Sequence record: MK234886
Length of the DNA stretch: 64,000 bases
Source of the DNA: Escherichia phage AnYang
Direction: 5' to 3' (one strand)
The translations under genes and the position numbers were made by a program. Shown here piece by piece: positions 4,695 through 64,000 of this stretch (its first letter is position 1; each line of letters starts with the position of its first letter). A model generated the notes under the pieces. The model worked only from the letters and a program-made list of their open reading frames with translations. It did no database searches and was not told the origin of the DNA.

Positions 4695-5303
4695 TTATTT
4701 ACGAGTCTTTTCGAACTGGGCTGCGTCACCTGCAAGGCGGCCGGCTTGGCGAAGTTTGTTATTGATTTCTTCGCGCATAGGCTGGGTATACTTAAGGCCT
4801 TCAACCGTCAGATAGAGACGATACAGGTCTGGGGTATCCAGGTTGTTAATGTGTTGACCATTACGAAGAGCGTTGAATTCACGAACAAGGTGTTTAGTTT
4901 CAGATTCGATTTCAGAAACTAAAGAAGCCAGTTGGTTATATTTTTTAACTATAGTGCTGGTGTCAAACTTGATTTTAGGTTTAGGAGCTTCTTTTACAGG
5001 TTCTGGTTTAGGCGTCGGTTTCGGTGTTGCAACTTTGGGCTGAGCCGCAGGTTTAGCAACAGGAGCTTTAGTAGGTTTAGTAGCGCCACCAGCTACGATA
5101 TCTTTAAAAGCTTTGGAAGCTTTGTAATATTCTTTCTGGTTACTGGTGTCGAGCCCATACATATCATAGACGTTTTTAAAGAATTCGGTGGTGGTTTTAG
5201 TCCCAGAAATTTTATCATAAGCTGCTTGCCACATATCTTTAGTCATGCGAACGCCGGCTTCACTCAGAATGCTTTCGTTCAAAAATTCATTGTAAGTTTT
5301 CAT
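4695..5303 (-). CDS. internal-protein-like (IPIII-like) packaged protein with N-terminal capsid-targeting-type leader MKTYNEFLNES and Lys/Pro-rich centre
   Basis: leader resembles T4 IP CTS MKTYQEFIAE; late promoter TATAAATA upstream; 202 aa. Confidence 0.55.
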   Translation of the reverse strand: MKTYNEFLNESILSEAGVRMTKDMWQAAYDKISGTKTTTEFFKNVYDMYGLDTSNQKEYYKASKAFKDIVAGGATKPTKAPVAKPAAQPKVATPKPTPKPEPVKEAPKPKIKFDTSTIVKKYNQLASLVSEIESETKHLVREFNALRNGQHINNLDTPDLYRLYLTVEGLKYTQPMREEINNKLRQAGRLAGDAAQFEKTRK

Positions 5304-5331
5304 TGGTATTTCCTAAGTTAATTAACTTATC

Positions 5332-5339
5332 TATTTATA
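5332..5339 (-). promoter_or_regulatory. T4-type late promoter TATAAATA (minus strand)
   Basis: exact TATAAATA about 30 nt upstream of ATG 5303, leader AACTTAGGAAATA. Confidence 0.55.
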
Positions 5340-5345
5340 CAAAAA

Positions 5346-5365
5346 GCCCAACCTTTCGGAAGGGC
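5346..5365 (-). terminator. hairpin GCCCUUCCGAAAGGUUGGGC + U-run (minus strand)
   Basis: inverted repeat followed by TTTTTG on minus strand, downstream of 5372-5926 gene. Confidence 0.5.
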
Positions 5366-5371
5366 TGTAAA

Positions 5372-5926
5372 TCAGTTCTTATAGAATCGGAACGGGTTTA
5401 CGTGGAAGGCTAACATAGCCTTAGGGATTTTACGAGACAAAAGACTCTTAAGTTTCCAACCACAGTACACGCGAAGGTAAAAGGTAATACCTCCAACCTT
5501 AAGATAAGGAACCGAAGCAAAAACTCCCCATGCGTCATCATTCCACATCCATAGCCACCCGTGATGAGCTTTATCAGGGGAACCTGATTCCACATCAGGA
5601 TTACCGCGATAATGGAATTCTGAGCTACAATCACGTCCGAGTTTATGGTAAGCAAAGTTATAAGCTTTATTTCGCCATAGCCAAGCTACTCTCTGGAGAT
5701 AAACGCCAAAAGGTAGTTTTCTGATTTTAGCCCAACGTTTAATGTGACCTTTATCACCGTCAATTGGATTATCGTATGTCATCATCCAATCAAAGCCATA
5801 TGGTAATTTACCGGTCTTTTTATTGTGGAAAGGGACTACAAAAGGTGCAAGGATAACAGCCAGAACCATAGAGATAAAATCTAGAGGGACCAACAGAACC
5901 CAACTCAAATATTTTAAAAGTTTCAT
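5372..5926 (-). CDS. hypothetical membrane-anchored Trp-rich protein (184 aa), late-expressed
   Basis: N-terminal hydrophobic helix WVLLVPLDFISMVLAVILAPFVV; TATAAATA late promoter and AGGAAA RBS upstream. Confidence 0.55.
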   Translation of the reverse strand: MKLLKYLSWVLLVPLDFISMVLAVILAPFVVPFHNKKTGKLPYGFDWMMTYDNPIDGDKGHIKRWAKIRKLPFGVYLQRVAWLWRNKAYNFAYHKLGRDCSSEFHYRGNPDVESGSPDKAHHGWLWMWNDDAWGVFASVPYLKVGGITFYLRVYCGWKLKSLLSRKIPKAMLAFHVNPFRFYKN

Positions 5927-5952
5927 ATTATTTCCTAAGTTAGTTTACTACA

Positions 5953-5960
5953 TATTTATA
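5953..5960 (-). promoter_or_regulatory. T4-type late promoter TATAAATA (minus strand)
   Basis: exact TATAAATA about 27 nt upstream of ATG 5926. Confidence 0.55.
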
Positions 5961-5967
5961 CAAAAAA

Positions 5968-5989
5968 GGCCCGACCTTTCGGAAGGGCC
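5968..5989 (-). terminator. hairpin GGCCCUUCCGAAAGGUCGGGCC + U-run (minus strand)
   Basis: inverted repeat followed by TTTTTTG; third copy of same element at 47703-47725. Confidence 0.5.
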
Positions 5990-5995
5990 TTTAAC

Positions 5996-6225
5996 CTAGG
6001 GTAACCTTGTCGGGGTTCCACCTGCTAGGCAAGTGTTCGGTGCGCCGTTTCAGCTGTGATATAAGGGACTTTAAGAGGAACTCATGTACGCCTTAAAGTC
6101 GGGTCTTATTCAGGGAACTTCAGTCCGACGACTTACCGGTAGCGACCCGGTTTCTTGTTTGTTGCGCCGGTGAATGCTGGTAATCAGTCTTCATACGACG
6201 GCTTGACTATATAATAGTCTTCATT
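5996..6225 (-). ncRNA. candidate small stable RNA(s) adjacent to tRNA-Arg (positional analogue of T4 RNA C/D)
   Basis: 230 nt with no ORF over 25 codons and no RBS, between tRNA-Arg and a terminator; no canonical tRNA T-loop found. Confidence 0.25.
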
Positions 6226-7769: not shown

Positions 7770-8171
7770 TTAACCCTCGTCTACAATGGTGTGGGTGTTG
7801 GCATTAACAATTTGCCACCAGTCAAAACGATTAGACCCATAAAGAGGCTTATTCTCGTTTTCTTTAATAATATCACGCAGTTCATCTTCAGAGAATGCTT
7901 TAGCGATTAAATCAGTATATCCACCACGTGGATAATAGTTGTCACCCGCGAACAAAAGGAAATTTACCTTTCCAGAAGGAATATATGCTTCCTTAGGATA
8001 CTTGTTTCCTGCATGGTCTAACACTTCAATATAACGATAAGGGATATCAGTACTTTCAACCCATTGCCAAGCCGCAGCAGGAGAGTCAAAAGCATCTACA
8101 CCTAAACGGTTATCTTCATCTTTAGACGGATTATTTTCATAATCCGCATATACATAATATTCAACGTTCAT
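7770..8171 (-). CDS. hypothetical protein (133 aa)
   Basis: ORF track; AAAGGTGA RBS; TAATG overlap with upstream gene. Confidence 0.5.
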   Translation of the reverse strand: MNVEYYVYADYENNPSKDEDNRLGVDAFDSPAAAWQWVESTDIPYRYIEVLDHAGNKYPKEAYIPSGKVNFLLFAGDNYYPRGGYTDLIAKAFSEDELRDIIKENENKPLYGSNRFDWWQIVNANTHTIVDEG

Positions 8172-9684: not shown

Positions 9685-10438
9685 TTTTATTTCCTAATAA
9701 TTTATCAATAGTAGTGTATAGTTCAGAAAGAGTGCCGTTATTTTCAACAACAACGTCACCAGGTAAAATTGGTAGACCCGCTTCAGTGATGTGCGAGTCT
9801 TGTACTTGACCGGTTTCAGAGCGAACTACATGAATAATCGTAGCACCCATCGCTCTGAGCGAATCAATTTCGTGTGTTTGACGAACATCAGGTACGACAT
9901 AGTATTTCGCATCAGAGTATATTTTATCAAAATAGTCTAAAGCGAACAACTTAACCCAATACATCTTATCAAATTGGTTAACAATAATATCAGTCCCAAG
10001 GGTCTGCATGAGACGACGTACTGACCAATTGTTATTTTTATTTATTACTTCAAACAGTTGGTCTTTTGTTTCTTCAGACAGATACTGGACTGGGGTAAGA
10101 CCATAATGATATGCGGTACGAACGTCCATTCCTGGAATAGGAAGGATATTATTCAGTTTGACAATAGCATTTTCAAAGATATCAACCACATCATATGGTT
10201 TTAAAGGAAGGATTTCTTCACGGTCGTAACCGATACCTTCAAAACAGTTGAAATCCAGTTTAGGCATATAACTACGGTCGAATACAGGGTCATCAGAGAT
10301 GTATTCATAGGCTTCAGCCAGATACTTTTTAATAGGACCTGCGAGCTGAAATTTTACCGAATCCATATTTTCGATTACATAGTTAGCAACGGTATCCTTA
10401 CCGCTACGTTTGATTCCTACAATTGATATTAGTTTCAT
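9677..10438 (-). CDS. 1: gp1 deoxynucleoside monophosphate kinase
   Basis: P-loop GIKRSGKDT at N-terminus; 253 aa; synteny. Confidence 0.85.
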
Positions 10439-55775: not shown

Positions 55776-55782
55776 CAAAAAA

Positions 55783-55800
55783 GGAGAGCGTATGCTCTCC
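55783..55800. terminator. bidirectional hairpin GGAGAGC-GUAU-GCUCUCC flanked by A6 and U-run
   Basis: between convergent gene 54 and minus-strand early ORF. Confidence 0.55.
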
Positions 55801-55810
55801 TTTAGGGGGT

Positions 55811-56101
55811 TTATTTACGGAACGAAATGAAACCTGCAGCAGTCATTAATGGTTGCTTTTTAACAAATACCGTAACTGAAATAGGAGCTTCGGATTCAAG
55901 CTGACCGGTCACTACACCATTAAAAATGTTTTCGGTTTGTTCCGGCTGAGAAAAGTTCTCAACAGGTCGGATATCAAATTGCTTATCTTCACCGAAAACT
56001 CGACGCAATTCATTACCAACTGCACTGTCAAACTCTTCGGAAGCAGGGATAACGTTTTCAACTACCAGTTCTTGACCGTTAAAGCGGAATGCAGATTTCA
56101 T
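55811..56101 (-). CDS. hypothetical protein (96 aa)
   Basis: ORF track; GAGGAG RBS; early promoter upstream. Confidence 0.5.
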   Translation of the reverse strand: MKSAFRFNGQELVVENVIPASEEFDSAVGNELRRVFGEDKQFDIRPVENFSQPEQTENIFNGVVTGQLESEAPISVTVFVKKQPLMTAAGFISFRK

Positions 56102-56158: not shown

Positions 56159-58282
56159 CTACATTTTGAATTTATTTGGTAGAGCAGAGATATCCAAAGA
56201 TGCCGCTAAGATTTCCATAGCCTCGTTGCTTTCAGAAACAGATTCACTAACCAAGAACTGTTTAAAGCCATCCATCGGACGAACTTCACCGGTTTCCATC
56301 AAATGGTCGCCATCGTAAACAGATTCACTGAGCTCTGAAGGAGACATCACTGTAGCTTCCATAAGGTATTTGTGAGATACCCTATCATTCATAGCAAAAG
56401 CCGCTACTTTATCGACCTTCATCAATAATCCGCGCGGAAGGATAATTTCTGCTTCTTCAGCGTATTCTGTAAGGTCACCTGGAGCGATAACTTTAACTGC
56501 TTCAGCACCTCGAATAACCATACCAATTTCAGCAATTCTATCCGCAGGGCCTTCAGGTGCAATTGGATTACCAAACTCGTCTTCTTCCCATTCTACCTCT
56601 TCGTCATCGACTTCACCCACATCAGATGAACTACCACTAGCCAATTTAAACAACTCATCAGCGGAGGATAAAGAACCTTCACCACCAACAAAAACGGCTT
56701 GGTTGTCGAGGGCCATATAATTTTTACCGAATTCACCAAAGATGTTAGGTTTTAGTGAGGCAGATACAAAGTTCTTAAAGTAAAATGTTTTGTTATCAAT
56801 ATTATGGCGCAGAATTTTGTATGGCAAATCCTGACCACGATACAAAATAGTACCCTTAGGAAGTTTAATACCCTTAGTAAATGCTGAGTCTAAATCCTTA
56901 ATCAATTTAATAGCCGTTGTATTGTTTTCGGATTCAGGTTTACCTAAAAGGAATAAGTTCATAGGAGCATATTCAGCAGCGCAATATTCAATAATAGCAT
57001 TGCTTTCATCTTTGGTTAGGTCCTTAGGTTTAATGAGCTCACCTGAATAAGCATATGCATCACTAATAGAATCGTTAATTAGTTTATAAACGGCTTCCAT
57101 AGCGAAAGCAATTCGGGATGCTTTCTCTGAAGGGGAGCCTTTAAAACGGGTACTCAGGTTATTAACAATTTTCTTAATAATATCCAGACTATTGGTTGTA
57201 TTGATTTGCGAAAGGCCGCTTAAAAGTCTATCGACTTCTGTATTAAAAAATGCCATATTTTTAGAGTAAATTTCAAACCCTTGTTTATCTCTATTAGCAT
57301 AATTTAGTTTAAATTTACTATCAGTCATTAAAGCGTGCGTGAGAGCAATGGTGTATCTAAAGTTGGCAAGGTCCTCGCTCTTAGATTTAAACTGAGAAGC
57401 CTGGCGCATTTTGGTAATAGCACCTTTTTTAAAGTTCTGACTAATCTGCTCAATACCTTCGTTCTCAGGGCCTTCGGCAGTGTGAACCGGCACAGAAGCT
57501 TCAAACTCATTATAAACCTGCAATTCTTTAGGGGACAAAGTTTCAGGCTCAGCAGTAGAATACTGTGCGGCTGCTGCCATACGACGGGAAATCTTAGTAC
57601 GAGTAATAACAGCCTTATCAGTACGTTTCTCTTCAACCTTAGCAATACTTGCCGAGACGGCTTCGACCTTACTTACAGACTGACCTGTTTTCTTGGATAC
57701 ATAAACTTCGCCGACTTTAGAATCGACTTTGGTATAAAGGTCAGCATCAATTTCGGGCATACCTTTGATATCTTCAATATTAGTACCACGACGTACTAAA
57801 AGAACGTAGGTATGTTTACCACTGAATTGGAACATATCATCGACAACTTTAAACTTACCACCGGTACGGGCCATCGCCAAACGTGCCAATACCCGCTGAA
57901 CAGTAGGGCCTTTACCTTTCATTTTCTTGGTAGGAAAACGGAATAAAACCGCATCCATTTTAAGTTTGTTTACTTGTTCGTATGCAGTATCAAAAATGGT
58001 ATTCAGCGTACCGAGTGGATCGGTACCCAAACCACCTTTGAGTTCTGCCGGAGCGCCTTTAGCAGACAAACTCATTAAGATGACATGGACGTACTTATCG
58101 CCTGGCTTAACCATTTTAATAGCATCGCCTTCAGACGCGTATGAAACCATACGCGCCACTAAATTGTCATTACCAGGAGCATGAACCGCAAAAATCTGCG
58201 GTATGCCCGAGCCAGGTTTAAGATTTGTTACTGGGTAATTTTTTTTATCACTTTTATCAAAAACTTCGTTTAAATTTTCCAT
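56159..58282 (-). CDS. Alt-like ADP-ribosyltransferase paralog 1 (707 aa)
   Basis: N-terminal about 220 aa near-identical to paralog 2; C-terminal R-S-E motifs LYRGQ, FVSASL, EAEIILPRG. Confidence 0.85.
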   Translation of the reverse strand: MENLNEVFDKSDKKNYPVTNLKPGSGIPQIFAVHAPGNDNLVARMVSYASEGDAIKMVKPGDKYVHVILMSLSAKGAPAELKGGLGTDPLGTLNTIFDTAYEQVNKLKMDAVLFRFPTKKMKGKGPTVQRVLARLAMARTGGKFKVVDDMFQFSGKHTYVLLVRRGTNIEDIKGMPEIDADLYTKVDSKVGEVYVSKKTGQSVSKVEAVSASIAKVEEKRTDKAVITRTKISRRMAAAAQYSTAEPETLSPKELQVYNEFEASVPVHTAEGPENEGIEQISQNFKKGAITKMRQASQFKSKSEDLANFRYTIALTHALMTDSKFKLNYANRDKQGFEIYSKNMAFFNTEVDRLLSGLSQINTTNSLDIIKKIVNNLSTRFKGSPSEKASRIAFAMEAVYKLINDSISDAYAYSGELIKPKDLTKDESNAIIEYCAAEYAPMNLFLLGKPESENNTTAIKLIKDLDSAFTKGIKLPKGTILYRGQDLPYKILRHNIDNKTFYFKNFVSASLKPNIFGEFGKNYMALDNQAVFVGGEGSLSSADELFKLASGSSSDVGEVDDEEVEWEEDEFGNPIAPEGPADRIAEIGMVIRGAEAVKVIAPGDLTEYAEEAEIILPRGLLMKVDKVAAFAMNDRVSHKYLMEATVMSPSELSESVYDGDHLMETGEVRPMDGFKQFLVSESVSESNEAMEILAASLDISALPNKFKM

Positions 58283-58285
58283 TAT

Positions 58286-60331
58286 TTACCCTTGGATGAA
58301 TTTTTCTGGGATTTCGTCAAAATTAATACATGAAGCTAAAATAGGCATTATATCCACTTTGGTCGATTTGACAAATGAATCAAAAGACACAGGGTTGTCG
58401 GTCTCTGTTTCTACACCTTGGTAAACAACCAATTCGCCTGTTTCCATCAATGCATCACCATCATAGATAACCGCATTTTCTGCTAGTTGGTCTGTGGTCT
58501 GGATATCTGCTTCCAATAATTTGGTGTTGTAGTTTCCTTTATATGAAGCATCAGTAATTTTAGTAATCTTAACTGTAGTTCCACGTGGAAGAATAACCTC
58601 TTGTTCTGTTGGAGAACCTGACAATTCACCAGGCATAATTACGTTAATAGAGTCTGCACCAGAAATTTTCCAGCCGATGTTCATCATTGTATTTTCGGAA
58701 CTCGTCAGCATACTTGGAAGAACAATTTCATTATCGCCTTGGAAAGATGTCCCAGCGCGATAGTCTTGATGTACTGCTGCCATTGCGACGTTTGATACCC
58801 AGCCGCCAAAGATAATCGGCTTAAGGGACGTTGATACATAGTTCCTGAAATAAAACAATTTTGAGTGCTTGATTTTATCAAAAGTGTTAACATTTAAATA
58901 TTGGCCACGCCAAAGTGTAATATCAGGTGGCAATTTATGACCAATTTCAAATGCCGCATCCATATCATTAATTACTTCAATTACACGCTGACTATCAATG
59001 AATTCTGCATCCTCTTCATAATAATTACCCAACAAATAATTATTAACATCGGTATAATATTGGCCGCAATAAGAAGAAATAGCCTCACGCTGCTCATACT
59101 CAAATCGATTATCGCTATAACCTGCTGTAAAATGCATAAGACTTTCTGATGCTTCATTAGCAAAGTCGGTAACAGCAGCACTTATACGTTGAGCATACTC
59201 TTGTTCCCAAAGCTCTGCTGCATATTCTGACGCATCCATATTAGGAGGGGCCTCATTCATTTTTCTTTCGATAAATGCAGCTTTGCGAAGGTTAAGAATC
59301 TCTGCACATGATTCGGCAAAAATCTGCATCTGCTTCATACTGCCGACAGGAGCACGTTTAAGTTCACGATGCATACGGTTAAAAATTGGGTCAGAGTCTT
59401 CGACTCGAATTTCTTCTTTCCAAACACCATTTGCTCGCATAGCCGTATCTGCCGCGCGCATACGGTCCATAGTATTCGTTTCAGAAGGTCGAACAAAAAT
59501 TTCCAGTTCTTCATAATCATCGATAAGTTCTGCCGTAGCCGGTCGACTAAACTTAGCAGCTTCTGCATCAATTTCGTCCCAACCTTCCGGAACTTCATCT
59601 CGAGGAGAATATTGGGCTGCGGCTACAGCACGCCTAGAAATCTTGGTAGTAGTAATGACAGCCTTATCAGTACGTTTTTCTTCGACTGCCGCTATACTAG
59701 CAGATAGTGCTTCTATTTTGGTTACTGATTGGCCTGTTTTCTTAGAAACATAAACCTCACCAACTTTAGAATCGACTTTAGTATAAAGGTCAGCATCAAT
59801 TTCGGGCATACCTTTTATGTCCTCAATATTAGCTTGTTTACGAACCAGTAAAACATATGTATGTTTGCCTGTAAATTGATACAGGCCATCAACAACTTTA
59901 AACTTACCGCCAGTACGAGCCATAGCCAAACGAGCTAATACGCGCTGAATAGTGGGACCCTTACCTTTCATTTTCTTAGTAGGGAAACGGAAAAGAACTG
60001 CATCCATTTTAAGTTTATTTACTTGTTCATATACCGTATCGAAAATGGTATTCAATGTACCAAGTGGGTCAGAACCTAACCCACCTTTCAACTCGGCTGG
60101 GGTACCCTTAGCAGACAAACTCATCAAAATAACATGAACATATTTGTCGCCCGGCTTAACCATTTTAATAGCGTCTCCTTGAGACGCATAAGATACCATA
60201 CGAGCGACCAAGTTATCATTACCTGGTGCTTGGATAGAGAAAATCTGTGGAATACCGGAACCTGGTTTAAGATTTATTACTGGATAGTTTTTAGCGGAAT
60301 CACTATCAAAAACTTCGTTTAAATTTTCCAT
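58286..60331 (-). CDS. Alt-like ADP-ribosyltransferase paralog 2 (681 aa)
   Basis: motifs LWRGQ, YVSTSL, EQEVILPRG; 3 nt from paralog 1 start. Confidence 0.85.
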   Translation of the reverse strand: MENLNEVFDSDSAKNYPVINLKPGSGIPQIFSIQAPGNDNLVARMVSYASQGDAIKMVKPGDKYVHVILMSLSAKGTPAELKGGLGSDPLGTLNTIFDTVYEQVNKLKMDAVLFRFPTKKMKGKGPTIQRVLARLAMARTGGKFKVVDGLYQFTGKHTYVLLVRKQANIEDIKGMPEIDADLYTKVDSKVGEVYVSKKTGQSVTKIEALSASIAAVEEKRTDKAVITTTKISRRAVAAAQYSPRDEVPEGWDEIDAEAAKFSRPATAELIDDYEELEIFVRPSETNTMDRMRAADTAMRANGVWKEEIRVEDSDPIFNRMHRELKRAPVGSMKQMQIFAESCAEILNLRKAAFIERKMNEAPPNMDASEYAAELWEQEYAQRISAAVTDFANEASESLMHFTAGYSDNRFEYEQREAISSYCGQYYTDVNNYLLGNYYEEDAEFIDSQRVIEVINDMDAAFEIGHKLPPDITLWRGQYLNVNTFDKIKHSKLFYFRNYVSTSLKPIIFGGWVSNVAMAAVHQDYRAGTSFQGDNEIVLPSMLTSSENTMMNIGWKISGADSINVIMPGELSGSPTEQEVILPRGTTVKITKITDASYKGNYNTKLLEADIQTTDQLAENAVIYDGDALMETGELVVYQGVETETDNPVSFDSFVKSTKVDIMPILASCINFDEIPEKFIQG

Positions 60332-60334
60332 TAT

Positions 60335-62419
60335 TTACCCTTGGATGAATTTTTCTGGGATGTCATAGAGGTCTATGCATGAAGCCAAAAGAGACAGCAC
60401 ATCAACCCGTGTAGATTTAACAAATGAATCAAAAGATACGGGGCTTTCGGAAGTATCGAAATCATCTTGATATACGACCAACTCGCCGGTTTCCATTAGT
60501 ACGTCACCATCATACACCACAGATTCTTGAAGCTCATCTGTTGTCATAACTTCAGCTTGGATGAGTTTTGTATTATTAGATGTTCTTCCATCATTATTAG
60601 ACGCATCTGTTATTTTATTAACTTTGACCATTAATCCACGCGGTAGAATAACTTCAGCTTCAGTTGCTATTCCGAGATTTCCTGGATATACAACATTAAC
60701 TTTATGAGCCCCATCAATCGCCCATCCTATTTGAACTTTAACGTAATCAGGATTTTCTTTATATGCTCTTATTTCATTAGGATTAATAGTTATTCCTTCT
60801 TCATTTTTATCGACCGTCAATTCATTACGAACTTCCGGTTCTAAAAGACCGATACCGGCGTGCGTAACACCAAAACGACCAAAAATGATAGGAGTTAAAG
60901 AAGTAGATACAAAATTTCTGAAATAGAACACTTTATTTTTAACTAGTGCTTCGTATATAGGAGCAGTCATACTCTGTGCACGATAAACTGTGATGCCTTC
61001 TGGTATACGGTCGCCATTTTCGAAAGCAGAATCCAAATTATTAACTGCAGATTCGATATCTTTTTCACTCATAATCTCATAGTTCTGAGGATTGTAACGA
61101 CCTAAAAGAAGGTTATTTATATCGCCGTATCCAGAGCCACAATATTCTCTGATGCCACGCTTTTGTGATGGGGTGTATTTAGAACCCTCACGAGCAATAG
61201 TAATATCAATCATTGAACCACCACCCACACCAGCAAAACTATACACGCGTTTTTTAATGAATTTGGTCTTGGATGCTTTCCACTTGGACTCGGTCAATTC
61301 ATTCCAGAGGTCGTCAGGTTGGCCTTTACGAGTTTTGTTATGCGTAGCCAACCATTCGCCTTTGTATTCTTCGAAAACGGTATTAATAGCAGAGGCATAT
61401 TTTTCTAGAGCTTTAACAGATGTCAAAGGTTCGTTTTTGATGGCTGATAGGATTTTCTCTTTAATTTTCTCTTTGATTTCACCTATACCGTGAAGAGGAA
61501 ACATTTTATAATCGTAATGCAATTCTTCAGCAGTGCCTTCAGCTACTATATTAGCAACCTTATTTTTAGCCGCAGGAGAATTGTTATTAGTAACCATTTC
61601 CTGGGCCTCAGGGATTAATGGAGCTGTTGCAGGTTTATTAAAATCTACGGCATTTGCTTCATATTTCTTAAACAGTTCACTTTCATTACGATAAGATTCT
61701 AACGATTGACTTGCTGCAATGGCACGACGAGAAATCTTAGTCTTGGTTATAACCATTTTATCAGTGCGACGTTCTTCAACTTTAGCAATACTGCCGGCAA
61801 TAGCAGTTTCTTTAGTAACCTGCACACCTTCTTTTTTAGAAATATAAACTTCACCGACATCAGAATCTACCTTAGTATATAATTCAGCATTAATTCCTGG
61901 CATACCTTTGATATCTTCGATATCGGCCTGTTTACGAACTACTAGGATATAAGTATGCTTGCCTGTAAATTGGTACATAGCTGGAATTACTTTGAAGCGC
62001 CCACCAGTTTTTTGAGTTACTAAACGTTGGATAATTCTCTGGACAATAGGGCCTTGTCCTTTCATTTTCTTGGTAGGAAAACGGAACATCACGGCATCCA
62101 TACGAAGCTTTTTAACTTGTTCGAATACTGCGTCGAAAATGGTATTAATAGCATCAATAGGAGTGGGACCAAGGCCACCCTTAAGTTCGGCTGGAGTACC
62201 TTTAGCTGATAAACTCATCAAAATAACGTGGGCATATTTATCACCCAATTTAACTTGTTTAATGGCGTCGCCTTCAGAGGCATAGGATACCATACGAGCA
62301 ACCAATTGGGATTCTGCGTCGCCTATCTTCCAAATCTGGGGTACTTTAAGTTTAGGGTTCAAGTTTACTGTAGGCAGTGTGCCTTCGGACTCAAACACTT
62401 CATTTAATTGTTCGGTCAT
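60335..62419 (-). CDS. alt: Alt ADP-ribosyltransferase (694 aa), copy adjacent to gene 30
   Basis: motifs VYRAQ, FVSTSL, EAEVILPRG; AGAGGAA RBS. Confidence 0.85.
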   Translation of the reverse strand: MTEQLNEVFESEGTLPTVNLNPKLKVPQIWKIGDAESQLVARMVSYASEGDAIKQVKLGDKYAHVILMSLSAKGTPAELKGGLGPTPIDAINTIFDAVFEQVKKLRMDAVMFRFPTKKMKGQGPIVQRIIQRLVTQKTGGRFKVIPAMYQFTGKHTYILVVRKQADIEDIKGMPGINAELYTKVDSDVGEVYISKKEGVQVTKETAIAGSIAKVEERRTDKMVITKTKISRRAIAASQSLESYRNESELFKKYEANAVDFNKPATAPLIPEAQEMVTNNNSPAAKNKVANIVAEGTAEELHYDYKMFPLHGIGEIKEKIKEKILSAIKNEPLTSVKALEKYASAINTVFEEYKGEWLATHNKTRKGQPDDLWNELTESKWKASKTKFIKKRVYSFAGVGGGSMIDITIAREGSKYTPSQKRGIREYCGSGYGDINNLLLGRYNPQNYEIMSEKDIESAVNNLDSAFENGDRIPEGITVYRAQSMTAPIYEALVKNKVFYFRNFVSTSLTPIIFGRFGVTHAGIGLLEPEVRNELTVDKNEEGITINPNEIRAYKENPDYVKVQIGWAIDGAHKVNVVYPGNLGIATEAEVILPRGLMVKVNKITDASNNDGRTSNNTKLIQAEVMTTDELQESVVYDGDVLMETGELVVYQDDFDTSESPVSFDSFVKSTRVDVLSLLASCIDLYDIPEKFIQG

Positions 62420-62457
62420 AATAATTCCTCTTTAATAACCTTATTTATGCCAGAAAA

Positions 62458-62469
62458 GGCCCGAAGGCC
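62458..62469 (-). terminator. hairpin GGCC-UUCG-GGCC + U-run (minus strand); CATAAATA late-promoter-like box at 62442-62449
   Basis: read on minus strand between small ORF and alt. Confidence 0.5.
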
Positions 62470-62473
62470 TTTA

Positions 62474-62656
62474 TTAAAGTACTAACAGCGTACGGTATAC
62501 TTCAAATTTAGGACCCTTTTCATAGCGGTCAAAATTATCTTTAAAATCGGCGAACGCGATTTCATTTTCAAATTCAAGGACAATTTGGGACACTGCAGTG
62601 GAGACATCGCCACCTTCTTTATATCCAATAACCACGGTTTCTAAATAAGCTTTCAT
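62474..62656 (-). CDS. hypothetical small protein (60 aa from ATG 62656; ORF track start 62698 overlaps ligase)
   Basis: ATG directly after ligase stop (TAATATG); no separate RBS seen. Confidence 0.35.
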   Translation of the reverse strand: MKAYLETVVIGYKEGGDVSTAVSQIVLEFENEIAFADFKDNFDRYEKGPKFEVYRTLLVL

Positions 62657-62657
62657 A

Positions 62658-64000
62658 TTATAGTCCAGTTTGAGACCAATCACCGAATACATCTTCAAAT
62701 GTATCAGCTTCTGTTTTATCGAAACGCCAACCTTTAATGATTGGAAGGAAAATACCTACAGTATCAGTACGTCCTTTAGAATGAACCCAACCATTACATT
62801 CACAGTCAGCAATACGTCCAATCAACTTACCTTCACGAGCTTGTTTCATAAGAAGTTCACGGTCTAAATCAGGACGGTCTTCCAATGGAATCAATACCTT
62901 TTTACCTGATTTATCTTTCTTATGGGTAGTATCTTTAAAGCCTGAACCACAGTCACTTGTAATTCGACGACAACGCGATACCAATTCAACACCACCAAGT
63001 TTGTTAGGGTCCTTCGAGTGTTCATAATAACCTACCACTTCTAAAGCAATATCGATTACTTCTTTGAACTTGATAAGATTCTTAGAACGGCGGTTTTCCC
63101 AGTAGGAGTCCATGTTCTTAAGGATAATGCCTTCCAAACCTTGGTCGACATATTTCTTATAAACGACTTTAGCTTCTTCAAGATTATTAACCCACTGGTT
63201 TTCGATAGCTTCAACACGCGTTGTACCATGCAATACGACATTATGAGCAACCATAAGTTCTAAGGCAGTAAAGCGTACATCGTACTTATCGCCTTTAATT
63301 TTACCTTCGGAATATACGACATCTAATGGGACATAATCCCATGCCTGCAATACCATACCTGCTGCTTCGGTTGAAGTAATAGTTCCTTGAAGAGCTTTGT
63401 TAGCCAAGCCATTTGAAGTGGAACGATCGGCTACGGTTTGGAATTCCTTAGCTTTACTTAATTCAGGAAGTTCCTCATCAAACATACTAAACAAATCATT
63501 AGATGCTTTAGGTTCTACTTTAGGAGTATGGTAAACTAATTCGCCGTCAATCATAACACCATTAGGATGGCGTTGTCGAGCTTCTTCGGTCATAGCCATT
63601 AATTCGGCAGCCAAAAGATTAAGCCCTTGATATTCGTTACCACCACGAGTAAGGAATGTCACACCATCATTACGAACTTCAGCAAAACAACGAGCACCGT
63701 CAGCTTTTAATTGAGCAAACGCAGGCCATTTAATATTTTTCTTAATCAAATCTTCATCATAAGAACTAGCCAACATCTGTGGTTGTTCAGGGATTAAACC
63801 TTTCCAAACCTTGTTAGCAATAGAAATCGATGCACCGCATTCAAGGTCACGCATCATTACACGACGTAATACCTCCGCATCCGGGGCCTTAGCATCGGCA
63901 ATGATTTGAGCCAGTTCTTCAATAGCTGCATTACCCGTAATCTTACGAGTGGCTAATGTGAATTCAGCGAAATCAAGAAGGTCTTCAAGAGTAATCATAC
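62658..64000 (-). CDS. 30: ATP-dependent DNA ligase gp30, C-terminal about 447 aa (N-terminus beyond window end)
   Basis: adenylation motif KADGARC; segment LEDLLDFAEFTLATRKITGNAAIEEL resembles T4 ligase residues about 60-90; frame open to window edge. Confidence 0.9.
   Translation of the reverse strand, partial: MITLEDLLDFAEFTLATRKITGNAAIEELAQIIADAKAPDAEVLRRVMMRDLECGASISIANKVWKGLIPEQPQMLASSYDEDLIKKNIKWPAFAQLKADGARCFAEVRNDGVTFLTRGGNEYQGLNLLAAELMAMTEEARQRHPNGVMIDGELVYHTPKVEPKASNDLFSMFDEELPELSKAKEFQTVADRSTSNGLANKALQGTITSTEAAGMVLQAWDYVPLDVVYSEGKIKGDKYDVRFTALELMVAHNVVLHGTTRVEAIENQWVNNLEEAKVVYKKYVDQGLEGIILKNMDSYWENRRSKNLIKFKEVIDIALEVVGYYEHSKDPNKLGGVELVSRCRRITSDCGSGFKDTTHKKDKSGKKVLIPLEDRPDLDRELLMKQAREGKLIGRIADCECNGWVHSKGRTDTVGIFLPIIKGWRFDKTEADTFEDVFGDWSQTGL

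What the first reader, a model, noticed from the sequence alone, without database searches (positions are those of the whole stretch)
56159..62419. Three tandem full-length Alt-like ADP-ribosyltransferase genes
Where the T4 map has one alt plus small alt.-1/-2/-3 ORFs, this window has three 681-707 aa paralogs. All keep the Arg / Ser-Thr-Ser / Glu-x-Glu signature (YRGQ or YRAQ; VSTSL or VSASL; E[AQ]E[IV]ILPRG). Paralogs 1 and 2 share a near-identical N-terminal 220 aa, whereas their central and catalytic regions diverge. T4 Alt is packaged in the head and injected with the DNA, so this triplication may provide three injected ARTs with different substrates.
Basis: partly seen in the sequence, partly recalled or inferred. 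Interest (0 to 1): 0.75.

Follow-up and report, generated by a model that had tools for sequence, protein, structure and literature searches.

The report
Three tandem Alt ADP-ribosyltransferase genes

Summary
There are three intact minus-strand ORFs: alt1 56159-58282 (707 aa), alt2 58286-60331 (681 aa) and alt3 60335-62419 (694 aa). Each matches the Alt family end to end and keeps the Arg / Ser-x-Ser / Glu-x-Glu active site.

It is not new. The window is a Dhakavirus (JS98-like) phage, 95.6% identical here to phage MX01. At least eight sequenced Dhakaviruses already carry three annotated alt genes. T-even relatives carry two, Pseudomonas phage PspYZU05 three, and T4's alt.-1/alt.-2 are annotated as remnants of a second copy.

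The copies are old and constrained. Between alt1 and alt2 N-domains dS is about 1.6, and ortholog dN/dS is 0.04-0.09. That excludes an artefact or neutral duplicates.

All three keep the N-terminal domain, both prohead-protease LxE sites mapped in T4 Alt, and the C-terminal propeptide. Co-packaging and injection are therefore likely, but unproven.

What I add is modularity. The central plus ART "warhead" (about aa 245-625) is swapped between genera and between array positions, while the N-domain and propeptide stay lineage-specific. alt3's ART is the RB14 type (94%), alt2's warhead the Gaprivervirus VR7 type, alt1's the RB14 Alt.-2 type. None is the characterised T4 type. Substrates remain unknown.

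The parts
60335..62419 (-). alt3, the first gene of the array (694 aa). Layout: N-domain aa 1-232, central helical region 233-418, ART domain 419-632 (R480, S505-T-S507, E587-A-E589), C-terminal propeptide 633-694. Predicted gp21 cuts lie after E7 (LNE|V) and E632 (LQE|S). The mature protein would be about 69.5 kDa with pI 8.9.
   Evidence: Its ART domain is 94% identical to Tequatrovirus RB14 Alt but its N-domain only 45-46%. It is 96-98% identical to the first alt of MX01, IME08 and Bp7.
58286..60331 (-). alt2, the middle gene (681 aa). Layout: N-domain 1-234, central 235-413, ART 414-618 (R475, S500-T-S502, E576-Q-E578), propeptide 619-681. Predicted cuts lie after E6 and E618 (LAE|N). The mature protein would be about 68.3 kDa with pI 5.3. 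It is present only in the three-copy Dhakaviruses.
   Evidence: The central plus ART region is at least 95% identical in 8 phages and about 81% identical to the Gaprivervirus (VR7, VR25, SP18 altB) Alt. The AF2 model has pLDDT 79 and pTM 0.71. The ART fold matches Vis, C3, CDTa and VIP2.
56159..58282 (-). alt1, the last gene of the array (707 aa). Layout: N-domain 1-234, central 235-420, ART 421-653 (R482, S507-A-S509, E610-A-E612) with an acidic insertion before ExE, propeptide 654-707. Predicted cuts lie after E6 and E653 (LSE|S). The mature protein would be about 71.3 kDa with pI 6.5.
   Evidence: It is 95-97% identical to JS98/IME08 altB and to the last alt of MX01 and KIT01. It is the RB14/OE5505 Alt.-2 type, at 48% overall identity.
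62441..62472 (-). Upstream control region of the array. It holds the hairpin AAGGCCUUCGGGCCUU (-10.2 kcal/mol), then CATAAATA, a 7/8 match to the T4 late promoter TATAAATA, 22 nt before the alt3 ATG, then the SD AAAGAGGAA.
   Evidence: T4, RB14 and OE5505 have the same hairpin followed by an exact TATAAATA at the same place. OE5505 annotates a terminator there. Nolan 2006 reports a conserved terminator upstream of alt.
60326..60337 (-). alt3-alt2 junction: CAA GGG TAA ATA ATG. The last codons of alt3 supply an AAGGG Shine-Dalgarno-like element 6 nt before the alt2 start. The spacer is 3 nt, which suggests translational coupling.
   Evidence: The same junction occurs in IME08 and KIT01, and near-identical ones in JS98 and Bp7; an analogous one (CAAGGATAAATCATG) occurs in RB14.
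58277..58288 (-). alt2-alt1 junction, identical in sequence to the alt3-alt2 junction.
55811..56101 (-). alt.-3 homologue (96 aa, DUF5498). It is a conserved downstream neighbour of the array and probably has its own promoter, GTTTACA-17-TACTAT, at 56158-56130.
55780..55803 (-). Intrinsic terminator that closes the alt/alt.-3 transcription unit. It lies between alt.-3 and the convergent gene 54.
   Evidence: 10-bp stem and T run. (-15.5 kcal/mol, z -6.5, 0 of 200 shuffles fold as well).

Best explanation
This is the alt locus of a Dhakavirus (JS98-like T-even relative) in its three-gene form. The three genes form one transcription unit. A late-promoter-like CATAAATA sits upstream of alt3, the genes are linked by 3-nt spacers, and each upstream stop region supplies the next gene's ribosome-binding site.

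Each product has four modules:
1. A lineage-specific N-terminal alpha/beta domain of about 235 aa.
2. A helical central region.
3. A C3/VIP2-type arginine-specific (R-S-ExE) ADP-ribosyltransferase domain.
4. A C-terminal propeptide of about 55-63 aa.

By analogy with T4 Alt, each is incorporated into the prohead core, trimmed by the gp21 prohead protease after an N-terminal LNE and a C-terminal LxE, kept in the mature head and injected with the DNA. There it would ADP-ribosylate host proteins within seconds of infection.

The three differ in the central plus ART 'warhead'. alt3 carries the RB14/T6-type Alt warhead, alt2 the Gaprivervirus VR7-type, and alt1 the Alt.-2 type. The phage would therefore inject three enzymes with probably different target sets.

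The array is built and varied by homologous recombination. The conserved N-domain and the propeptide/junction serve as arms, so warheads are exchanged between alleles, between array positions and between phage genera.

Shown here: gene integrity, motifs, purifying selection, mosaic structure, synteny and prevalence. Inferred: late expression, packaging, cleavage, injection, activity and substrate divergence.
For: Integrity and family membership.

Not an artefact or a recent duplicate:
- The same three-gene array occurs at 93-96% nucleotide identity in independently sequenced MX01, C6, fDHCT2 and QL01. KIT01, UGJNEcP3/4 and LHE83 also have three alt genes, but their first copy (alt3 position) carries a different warhead allele.
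- alt1 versus alt2 N-domains give dN 0.08 and dS 1.6.

All three are under purifying selection in every module, with ortholog dN/dS of 0.04-0.09.

Catalytic R, S-x-S and E-x-E are conserved. The ART fold and profile match Vis, C3, Iota, CDTa and VIP2.

Packaging and maturation signals:
- T4 Alt is cut at ITE-6 and LTE-619 (PMC5694885).
- The aligned positions here are LNE|V and LQE|S, LAE|N, LSE|S.
- Both Glu residues are invariant in 38 homologues.
- The C-terminal site falls in a low-confidence linker right after the ART domain in the AF2 model.

Operon signals.

Modular exchange:
- win_alt3 versus RB14 Alt: N 45-46%, ART 94% (ART dS 0.54, N-domain dS 2.6). The flanking gp48, gp54 and ligase are 61-68% identical.
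- win_alt3 versus JS98 altA: N 98%, propeptide 95%, central 36%, ART 61%. Breakpoints are sharp at about aa 240-255 and 615-630.
- RB14 Alt versus T4 Alt: N 99%, central 33%, ART 67%, propeptide 94%.
- win_alt2 versus VR7 Alt: N 39%, central 86%, ART 76%.
- Warhead combinations reassort within Dhakavirus: window/MX01, KIT01, IME08, JS98 and Bp7 all differ.
Against: There are no experimental data for any Dhakavirus Alt. Packaging, cleavage, injection and enzymatic activity are all extrapolated from T4 Alt, whose warhead type is not among the three here (best ART identity 64%).

The late promoter match is 7 of 8 (CATAAATA, not TATAAATA), and no transcript data exist.

T4 heads hold only about 40 Alt copies (PMC5694885). 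Three paralogues with similar N-domains might compete for the same sites, and one could dominate.

alt1 has S-A-S instead of S-T-S and a large acidic insertion in the ART domain. Its activity could differ in kind.

Different warheads need not mean different substrates. They could instead reflect escape from host inhibitors of one and the same activity.
Confidence: 0.6

Rival explanations
1. Only one copy (most plausibly alt3, the positional and closest sequence counterpart of Alt in other T-even phages) is the injected enzyme. The others are made late but act inside the producing cell or are poorly packaged, so they work more like ModA/ModB-type intracellular modifiers or as spare cassettes for recombination.
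For: Head capacity for Alt is limited, at about 40 copies in T4 (PMC5694885). Many Dhakaviruses do without alt2, and T4 has let its second copy decay to the alt.-1/alt.-2 fragments. Extra copies are therefore dispensable.
Against: All three keep the full N-domain, both LxE sites and the propeptide under strong purifying selection. dN/dS is 0.03-0.07 in the N-domain and 0-0.16 in the propeptide. That would be unnecessary for a purely intracellular enzyme, and ModA/ModB lack these modules. alt1 is the most conserved copy across Dhakavirus, at 95-97%.
Confidence: 0.2
2. The three copies are functionally redundant. They modify the same host targets (RNA polymerase alpha and others), and the diversity exists to evade host factors that recognise or inhibit a particular Alt variant, or simply to increase dosage.
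For: The ExE motif predicts arginine specificity for all three. [quoted passage not shown] Warhead swapping between genera is the pattern expected under an arms race.
Against: The central domains are essentially unrelated in sequence, at 15-22% identity. The loops before ExE differ (GNLGIAT, GELSGSPT, GDLTEYAE). Mature pI ranges from 5.3 to 8.9. Each type is conserved as a distinct lineage across genera, which is more than dosage would need.
Confidence: 0.2
3. Assembly artefact or very recent neutral duplication.
For: The inter-gene junctions are identical and the N-termini of alt1 and alt2 are similar.
Against: The copies differ at 18-28% of nucleotides even in the most similar segment, with dS 1.6. 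The catalytic regions are 32-39% identical. The same arrangement occurs in at least 8 independently sequenced phages. Ortholog dN/dS is 0.04-0.09.
Confidence: 0.01

Closest known systems
Bacteriophage T4 Alt (gpAlt, UniProt P12726), the head-packaged, injected NAD:arginine ADP-ribosyltransferase
   Same: The locus is the same, between gene 30/alt.1 and alt.-3/gene 54. So is the four-module layout, the R-S-ExE site, both gp21 LxE cleavage motifs, and the hairpin plus late-promoter element upstream.
   Different: Overall identity is only 32-48%. None of the three carries the T4-type warhead: the best ART identity is 64% and the central region 34%. There are three full genes here, where T4 has one plus the alt.-1/alt.-2 fragments.
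Three-gene alt arrays of Dhakavirus phages MX01, QL01, C6, fDHCT2, KIT01, UGJNEcP3/4 and LHE83 (GenBank/RefSeq annotation)
   Same: Gene order, lengths (707/681/694-695 aa) and junctions are the same. Identity to MX01 is 95.6% at nucleotide level and 97-99% at protein level.
   Different: This is only allelic variation. KIT01 and the UGJNEcP phages carry the JS98-type warhead in the first gene instead of the RB14 type.
Two-gene arrays: RB14/OE5505/T6 alt + alt.-2 (Tequatrovirus), JS98/JS10/IME08 alta + altb, Bp7 alt + alt', SP18 alta + altb
   Same: The design is the same tandem, translationally coupled one. alt3 matches RB14 Alt in the ART domain (94%). alt1 matches the Alt.-2 and altB types.
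   Different: These arrays lack the middle gene. Its warhead is otherwise carried by the only full-length Alt of VR7-type Gapriverviruses and by the second copy (altB) of SP18.
Pseudomonas phage PspYZU05 (Jiangsuvirus) three alt genes, and Aeromonas phage 31/44RR two full plus one partial
   Same: These are independent examples of 2-3 tandem Alt paralogues next to genes 54/48. Nolan 2006 noted the 44RR duplication.
   Different: In PspYZU05 each copy has its own terminator, TATAAATA promoter and SD, rather than 3-nt coupling. Its C-terminal propeptides lack the YDGDxLMETGE motif.
Polymorphic toxin / polyvalent injected-effector systems (Zhang et al. 2012 PMC3482391; Iyer et al. 2017 PMC5512222)
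   Same: A conserved delivery module is combined with recombining, fast-diversifying enzymatic heads. The effector is delivered with the invading DNA.
   Different: No immunity gene or stand-alone cassette reservoir was identified. The warheads are full tandem genes, not silent 3' cassettes. [quoted passage not shown]

Membership tests
T4 Alt family (PHROG 802; Pfam PF03496 plus the Alt N-terminal domain) | C-terminal R-S-E (C3/VIP2-clade) ADP-ribosyltransferase domain with Arg, Ser-x-Ser and Glu-x-Glu | tested here: met
   PF03496 gives E 8e-18 to 6.5e-36. The motif residues are located and are invariant in alignments. A profile finds C3, Iota, VIP2 and Certhrax in the PDB. Foldseek finds Vis, C3 and CDTa at E 2e-7 to 3e-5.
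T4 Alt family (PHROG 802; Pfam PF03496 plus the Alt N-terminal domain) | Alt-specific N-terminal domain of about 235 aa and full-length collinearity with Alt | tested here: met
   phrog_802 matches positions 1-2 to 674 of 674 in all three. The N-domain aligns with T4, RB14, Aeromonas and Pseudomonas phage Alts, with 17 invariant columns. Homologues carry precomputed PF26846 together with PF03496.
T4 Alt family (PHROG 802; Pfam PF03496 plus the Alt N-terminal domain) | Genomic position between DNA ligase (30)/alt.1 and alt.-3/gene 54, transcribed convergently with the baseplate genes | tested here: met
T4 Alt family (PHROG 802; Pfam PF03496 plus the Alt N-terminal domain) | Prohead-protease (gp21) processing sites: LxE near residue 6 and LxE about 60 residues from the C-terminus | tested here: met
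   The motifs are present at the aligned positions in all three. The T4 sites come from PMC5694885. Actual cleavage was not tested.
T4 Alt family (PHROG 802; Pfam PF03496 plus the Alt N-terminal domain) | Physical presence in the virion and injection with the DNA | not testable with these tools
   This needs virion proteomics or infection experiments. No such data for Dhakavirus turned up in the literature searches.
T4 Alt family (PHROG 802; Pfam PF03496 plus the Alt N-terminal domain) | [quoted passage not shown] | not testable with these tools
   This is a biochemical property, known only for the T4-type protein (PMC10468400; PMC9503650).
Strict orthologue of the characterised T4 Alt enzyme | Same warhead (central plus ART) type as T4 Alt | tested here: not met
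   The best match is alt3, with central 34% and ART 64% identity. alt2 gives 22/40% and alt1 18/39%. The T4-type warhead is found instead in Bp7 alt', at central 61% and ART 78%.
Polymorphic-toxin-like cassette system | Conserved delivery module with recombinationally exchanged enzymatic heads | tested here: met
   Domain-wise identity tables and sliding windows show sharp breakpoints at about aa 240-255 and 615-630.
Polymorphic-toxin-like cassette system | Cognate immunity gene next to each toxin head, and silent spare cassettes | tested here: not met
   There are no ORFs between the alt genes, only 3-nt spacers. The only neighbour is a single alt.-3, which is conserved whatever the warhead type.

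The most novel reading that the evidence does not exclude
The alt locus of T-even-like phages may be a combinatorial array of injected effectors. A lineage-specific head-delivery module (the N-domain plus the cleavable C-terminal propeptide) would double as recombination arms. Central plus ART warheads could then be shuffled between alleles, array positions and genera, and stacked up to three deep, presumably in an arms race with host targets or defences.

A further, weaker extension concerns the Alt N-domain fold. Foldseek finds it, with probability 1.00 but modest TM scores, at the N-terminus of large uncharacterised proteins of unrelated phages. Some of these are annotated with zeta-toxin or deaminase domains. 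At sequence level it also occurs in proteins with no detectable ART (P0184). The N-domain could therefore be a general capsid-delivery adaptor for diverse effectors.
Probability: 0.4. Interest if true: 0.55.

Novelty: already known. Interest (0 to 1): 0.3.

Why it matters
Alt is the textbook case of a phage enzyme delivered with the DNA to reprogramme the host at once. Only the T4 variant has been studied, and it is one of at least five warhead types. Many relatives inject, or at least encode, two or three different ones.

A three-copy Dhakavirus is a convenient natural system for asking what the non-T4 types modify. Candidates include RNA polymerase, translation factors, toxins such as MazF (from my own knowledge, not checked here), defence proteins, or possibly non-protein substrates.

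The modular layout defined here (N-domain, warhead, LxE, propeptide) also gives boundaries for engineering cargo into T4-like heads. As a finding from this window, however, it adds no new kind of element.

Tried and rejected
- Solved structure for Alt: none. phmmer with alt3 found 0 hits. A profile of the N-domain found 0 hits even at E<=10.
- Pfam and NCBIfam: nothing for the N-domain or central region in the local copies.
- N-domain-only HMM search of 1.84 billion proteins: the profile came out full length (641 positions) because the two full-length rows outweighed the fragments, so most weak hits were ART domains. Only a handful of N-domain-only hits could be examined.
- Internal TATAAATA inside alt3 (61121-61114): it codes for the conserved D-I-N-N and is absent at that site in RB14 and T4. 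I judged it a coding coincidence.
- Literature: searches for any experimental work on Dhakavirus or multi-copy Alt proteins found only annotation-level remarks.
- Assembly artefact, pseudogenes and recent duplication: rejected on dS, dN/dS and recurrence in independent genomes.

Full report
OBSERVATION

The window carries three uninterrupted ORFs on the minus strand at exactly the coordinates given:
- alt1, 56159-58282, 707 aa
- alt2, 58286-60331, 681 aa
- alt3, 60335-62419, 694 aa

They are transcribed in the order alt3, alt2, alt1. The spacers are 3 nt, and the two junctions are identical: TTCATCCAAGGGTAAATAATGGAAAAT. All three pass Pfam PF03496. All three match PHROG 802, 'Alt-like RNA polymerase ADP-ribosyltransferase', from the first to the last profile position.

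The catalytic Arg, Ser-x-Ser and Glu-x-Glu are present in each. These columns are invariant or nearly so in alignments of 7 and 38 homologues.

- alt2 reads WRGQ.
- The alt1/alt2 N-terminus is 88.8% identical over 242 aa, not near-identical, and only 72-82% identical at nucleotide level.

CONTEXT

The neighbours on the minus strand are DNA ligase (gene 30, cut by the window end) and alt.1 upstream, and alt.-3 downstream. Genes 54 and 48 converge from the plus strand. This is the T4 alt locus.

The DNA is 95.6% identical to Escherichia phage MX01, so the window comes from a Dhakavirus, the JS98 group.

IS IT NEW? NO.

- MX01, QL01, C6, fDHCT2, KIT01, UGJNEcP3/4 and LHE83 are already annotated with three Alt genes of the same lengths.
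- JS98, JS10, IME08, WG01 and Bp7 have two, named alta/altb or alt/alt'.
- The Tequatroviruses RB14 and OE5505 have two full genes, alt and alt.-2.
- Pseudomonas phage PspYZU05 has three, and Aeromonas phage 31 has two plus a fragment.
- The T4 record itself says that alt.-1 and alt.-2 'reflect an old duplication of the first part of gene alt'. I confirmed that they match residues 1-58 and 58-115 of the N-domain in two reading frames.
- Nolan et al. 2006 said the same and noted the full-length duplicate in 44RR (PMC1524935).
- A 2026 paper already proposes that two Alt paralogues expand the target range (PMC13600099).

In an evenly spaced sample of 60 of the 1,220 phage records that match alt3, 30 had two or more Alt-like places and 4 had three.

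REAL, OLD AND MAINTAINED

Between the two most similar segments, the alt1 and alt2 N-domains, dN is 0.08 and dS is 1.6. This is an ancient duplication under strong constraint, not an assembly artefact.

Against their orthologues in MX01, KIT01, IME08, JS98 and Bp7, each of the three has dN/dS of 0.04-0.09 overall and at most 0.16 in any module.

ANATOMY

An AlphaFold model of alt2, built on 38 homologues, has pLDDT 79 and pTM 0.71. It shows:
- an alpha/beta N-domain at about aa 15-200
- a helical linker and central helical region to about aa 410
- the ART domain at about aa 410-612
- low confidence at residues 1-13, in a loop at 528-545, at 618-622 and at 637-658

The ART domain matches Vis, C3, CDTa, Certhrax, VIP2 and Iota toxin. 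No Alt structure has been solved.

PACKAGING SIGNALS

Ali et al. 2017 showed by mass spectrometry that T4 Alt loses six N-terminal residues (cut at ITE-6) and 63 C-terminal residues (cut at LTE-619) through the gp21 prohead protease (PMC5694885).

At the aligned positions all three proteins have LNE|V at the N-terminus. Near the C-terminus alt3 has LQE|S, alt2 LAE|N and alt1 LSE|S. Both Glu residues are invariant in 38 homologues. In alt2 the C-terminal site sits in the disordered stretch 618-622.

The propeptide that follows is conserved, with YDGDxLMETGE and a terminal KF motif.

The predicted mature proteins are:
- alt1: 71.3 kDa, pI 6.5
- alt2: 68.3 kDa, pI 5.3
- alt3: 69.5 kDa, pI 8.9

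These features make co-packaging of all three the most likely reading, but nothing here proves it.

EXPRESSION SIGNALS

Upstream of alt3 lies a hairpin, AAGGCCUUCGGGCCUU (-10.2 kcal/mol). CATAAATA follows, 22 nt before the ATG, and then a strong SD. T4, RB14 and OE5505 have the same hairpin followed by an exact late-promoter TATAAATA.

The last codons of alt3 and alt2 (CAA GGG TAA) form an AAGGG element 6 nt before the next ATG. No terminator-like site lies at either inter-gene junction; the scan's only hit on the coding strand within the array is a weak 6-bp stem inside alt3.

alt.-3 has its own GTTTACA-17-TACTAT promoter-like site. A strong terminator closes the unit.

THE MAIN ADDITION: MODULAR EXCHANGE

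I computed identity module by module: N-domain, central region, ART domain and propeptide. All values below are percent amino-acid identity.

Pair | N | central | ART | propeptide | calls
win_alt3 vs RB14 Alt (different genus) | 45-46 | 66 | 94 | 53 | 33, 66
win_alt3 vs JS98 altA (same genus) | 98 | 36 | 61 | 95 | 33
RB14 Alt vs T4 Alt (same genus) | 99 | 33 | 67 | 94 | 66
win_alt2 vs VR7 Alt | 39 | 86 | 76 | 62 | 66
Bp7 alt' vs T4 Alt | 42 | 61 | 78 | 56 | 66
win_alt1 vs RB14 Alt.-2 | 44 | 46-47 | 56-58 | 67 | 33, 66

- For win_alt3 versus RB14 Alt, the flanking gp48, gp54 and ligase are 61-68% identical. ART dS is 0.54 against 2.6 for the N-domain.
- For win_alt3 versus JS98 altA, the flanks are 96-99% identical. 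Sliding windows put the breakpoints at about aa 240-255 and 615-630, that is, just after the KISRR motif and at the protease site.
- The alt2 warhead is the type carried by the only full-length Alt of most Gapriverviruses (e.g. VR7) and by the second copy (altB) of SP18.
- Bp7 alt' combines a Dhakavirus N-domain with a T4-type warhead.

Within Dhakavirus the combinations reassort:
- window and MX01: RB14 type, VR7 type, Alt.-2 type
- KIT01: JS98 type, VR7 type, Alt.-2 type
- IME08: RB14 type, Alt.-2 type
- JS98: JS98 type, Alt.-2 type
- Bp7: RB14 type, T4 type

So the delivery modules follow the phage lineage, while the warheads move horizontally. The 'triplication' is better described as three different warhead types stacked in one array. 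None of the three is the T4 type on which all the biochemistry was done.

MECHANISM, WITH ITS STATUS

Shown: gene integrity, motifs, selection, synteny, mosaicism and prevalence.

Inferred from T4: late transcription as one unit, coupled translation, incorporation into the prohead core, gp21 trimming at both ends, retention in the head, injection, and arginine ADP-ribosylation of host proteins.

Inferred from divergence only: different target sets. The central regions are 15-22% identical, the loops preceding ExE differ, and the charge differs.

The rivals cannot be excluded without experiments. They are that only one copy is injected, or that all hit the same targets and vary only to evade host factors.

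SIDE LEAD

Foldseek of the N-domain model against viral predicted structures found, beyond Alt proteins, hits with probability 1.00 (E 1e-8 to 1e-4, TM 0.45-0.65 on the query). They are large uncharacterised proteins of Dickeya, Erwinia, Vibrio, Aeromonas and Agrobacterium phages, including ones annotated with zeta-toxin or deaminase domains.

A profile search of 1.84 billion proteins found a few N-domain proteins with no detectable ART, for example P0184.

This hints that the N-domain is a general delivery adaptor. The evidence is thin.

VERDICT

The feature is already known and annotated. It is of moderate-to-low interest, mainly as a ready experimental system and for the module-swapping pattern.

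Noticed in passing
window 55811-56101 (-), promoter-like site 56158-56130, terminator 55803-55780: The alt.-3 homologue (96 aa, Pfam DUF5498, PHROG 1739) follows the array. It has its own GTTTACA-17-TACTAT promoter-like site and a strong terminator (-15.5 kcal/mol, z -6.5). In T4, C-terminal extension mutants of Alt.-3 escape the CmdTAC defence system (Vassallo et al. 2024, PMC11618068). The copy here has the wild-type length.
   Followed up: partly
window 62474-62698 (-): The alt.1 homologue lies between the ligase gene and the array. Its real start is probably Met15, giving 60 aa as annotated in MX01. It matches Pfam PF24647 'Phage blade protein' (E 9e-29). The listed TTG-start ORF overlaps the end of the ligase gene.
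   Followed up: no
window 62658-63998 (-): The gene 30 DNA ligase ORF is cut by the window end. It shows 446 aa here, against 507 aa in MX01, JS98 and KIT01.
   Followed up: no
window 61114-61121 (-), inside alt3: An exact T4 late-promoter octamer, TATAAATA, lies inside alt3, formed by the codons for D-I-N-N of the conserved YxDINN motif. It is also present in MX01 but not at that site in RB14 or T4. It is probably a coding coincidence.
   Followed up: partly
L003 (T4 GT7) 5056-5390: T4 alt.-1 and alt.-2 match residues 1-58 and 58-115 of the Alt N-domain in two different frames. They correspond to the separate 'unknown function' PHROGs 23015 and 15247, so those two families are fragments of a decayed second alt gene.
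   Followed up: yes
[not shown]
   Followed up: partly
BFVD hits and proteins P0177, P0184, P0173, P0179: The Alt N-domain fold or sequence occurs at the N-terminus of large proteins from unrelated phages. Some have non-ART or degenerate-ART C-terminal parts. Examples are P0184 (541 aa, no ART motif), an Atu_ph07 protein with a 'Zeta toxin domain', and a protein with a 'cytidine deaminase domain'.
   Followed up: partly
L008 (PspYZU05) 5940-6000, 7940-8000, 9930-9992: In PspYZU05 each of the three alt genes is preceded by its own hairpin terminator, an exact TATAAATA and an AAGGAG. This nearly identical ~60-nt cassette is repeated three times, in contrast to the 3-nt coupling in T-even and Dhakavirus arrays.
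   Followed up: no
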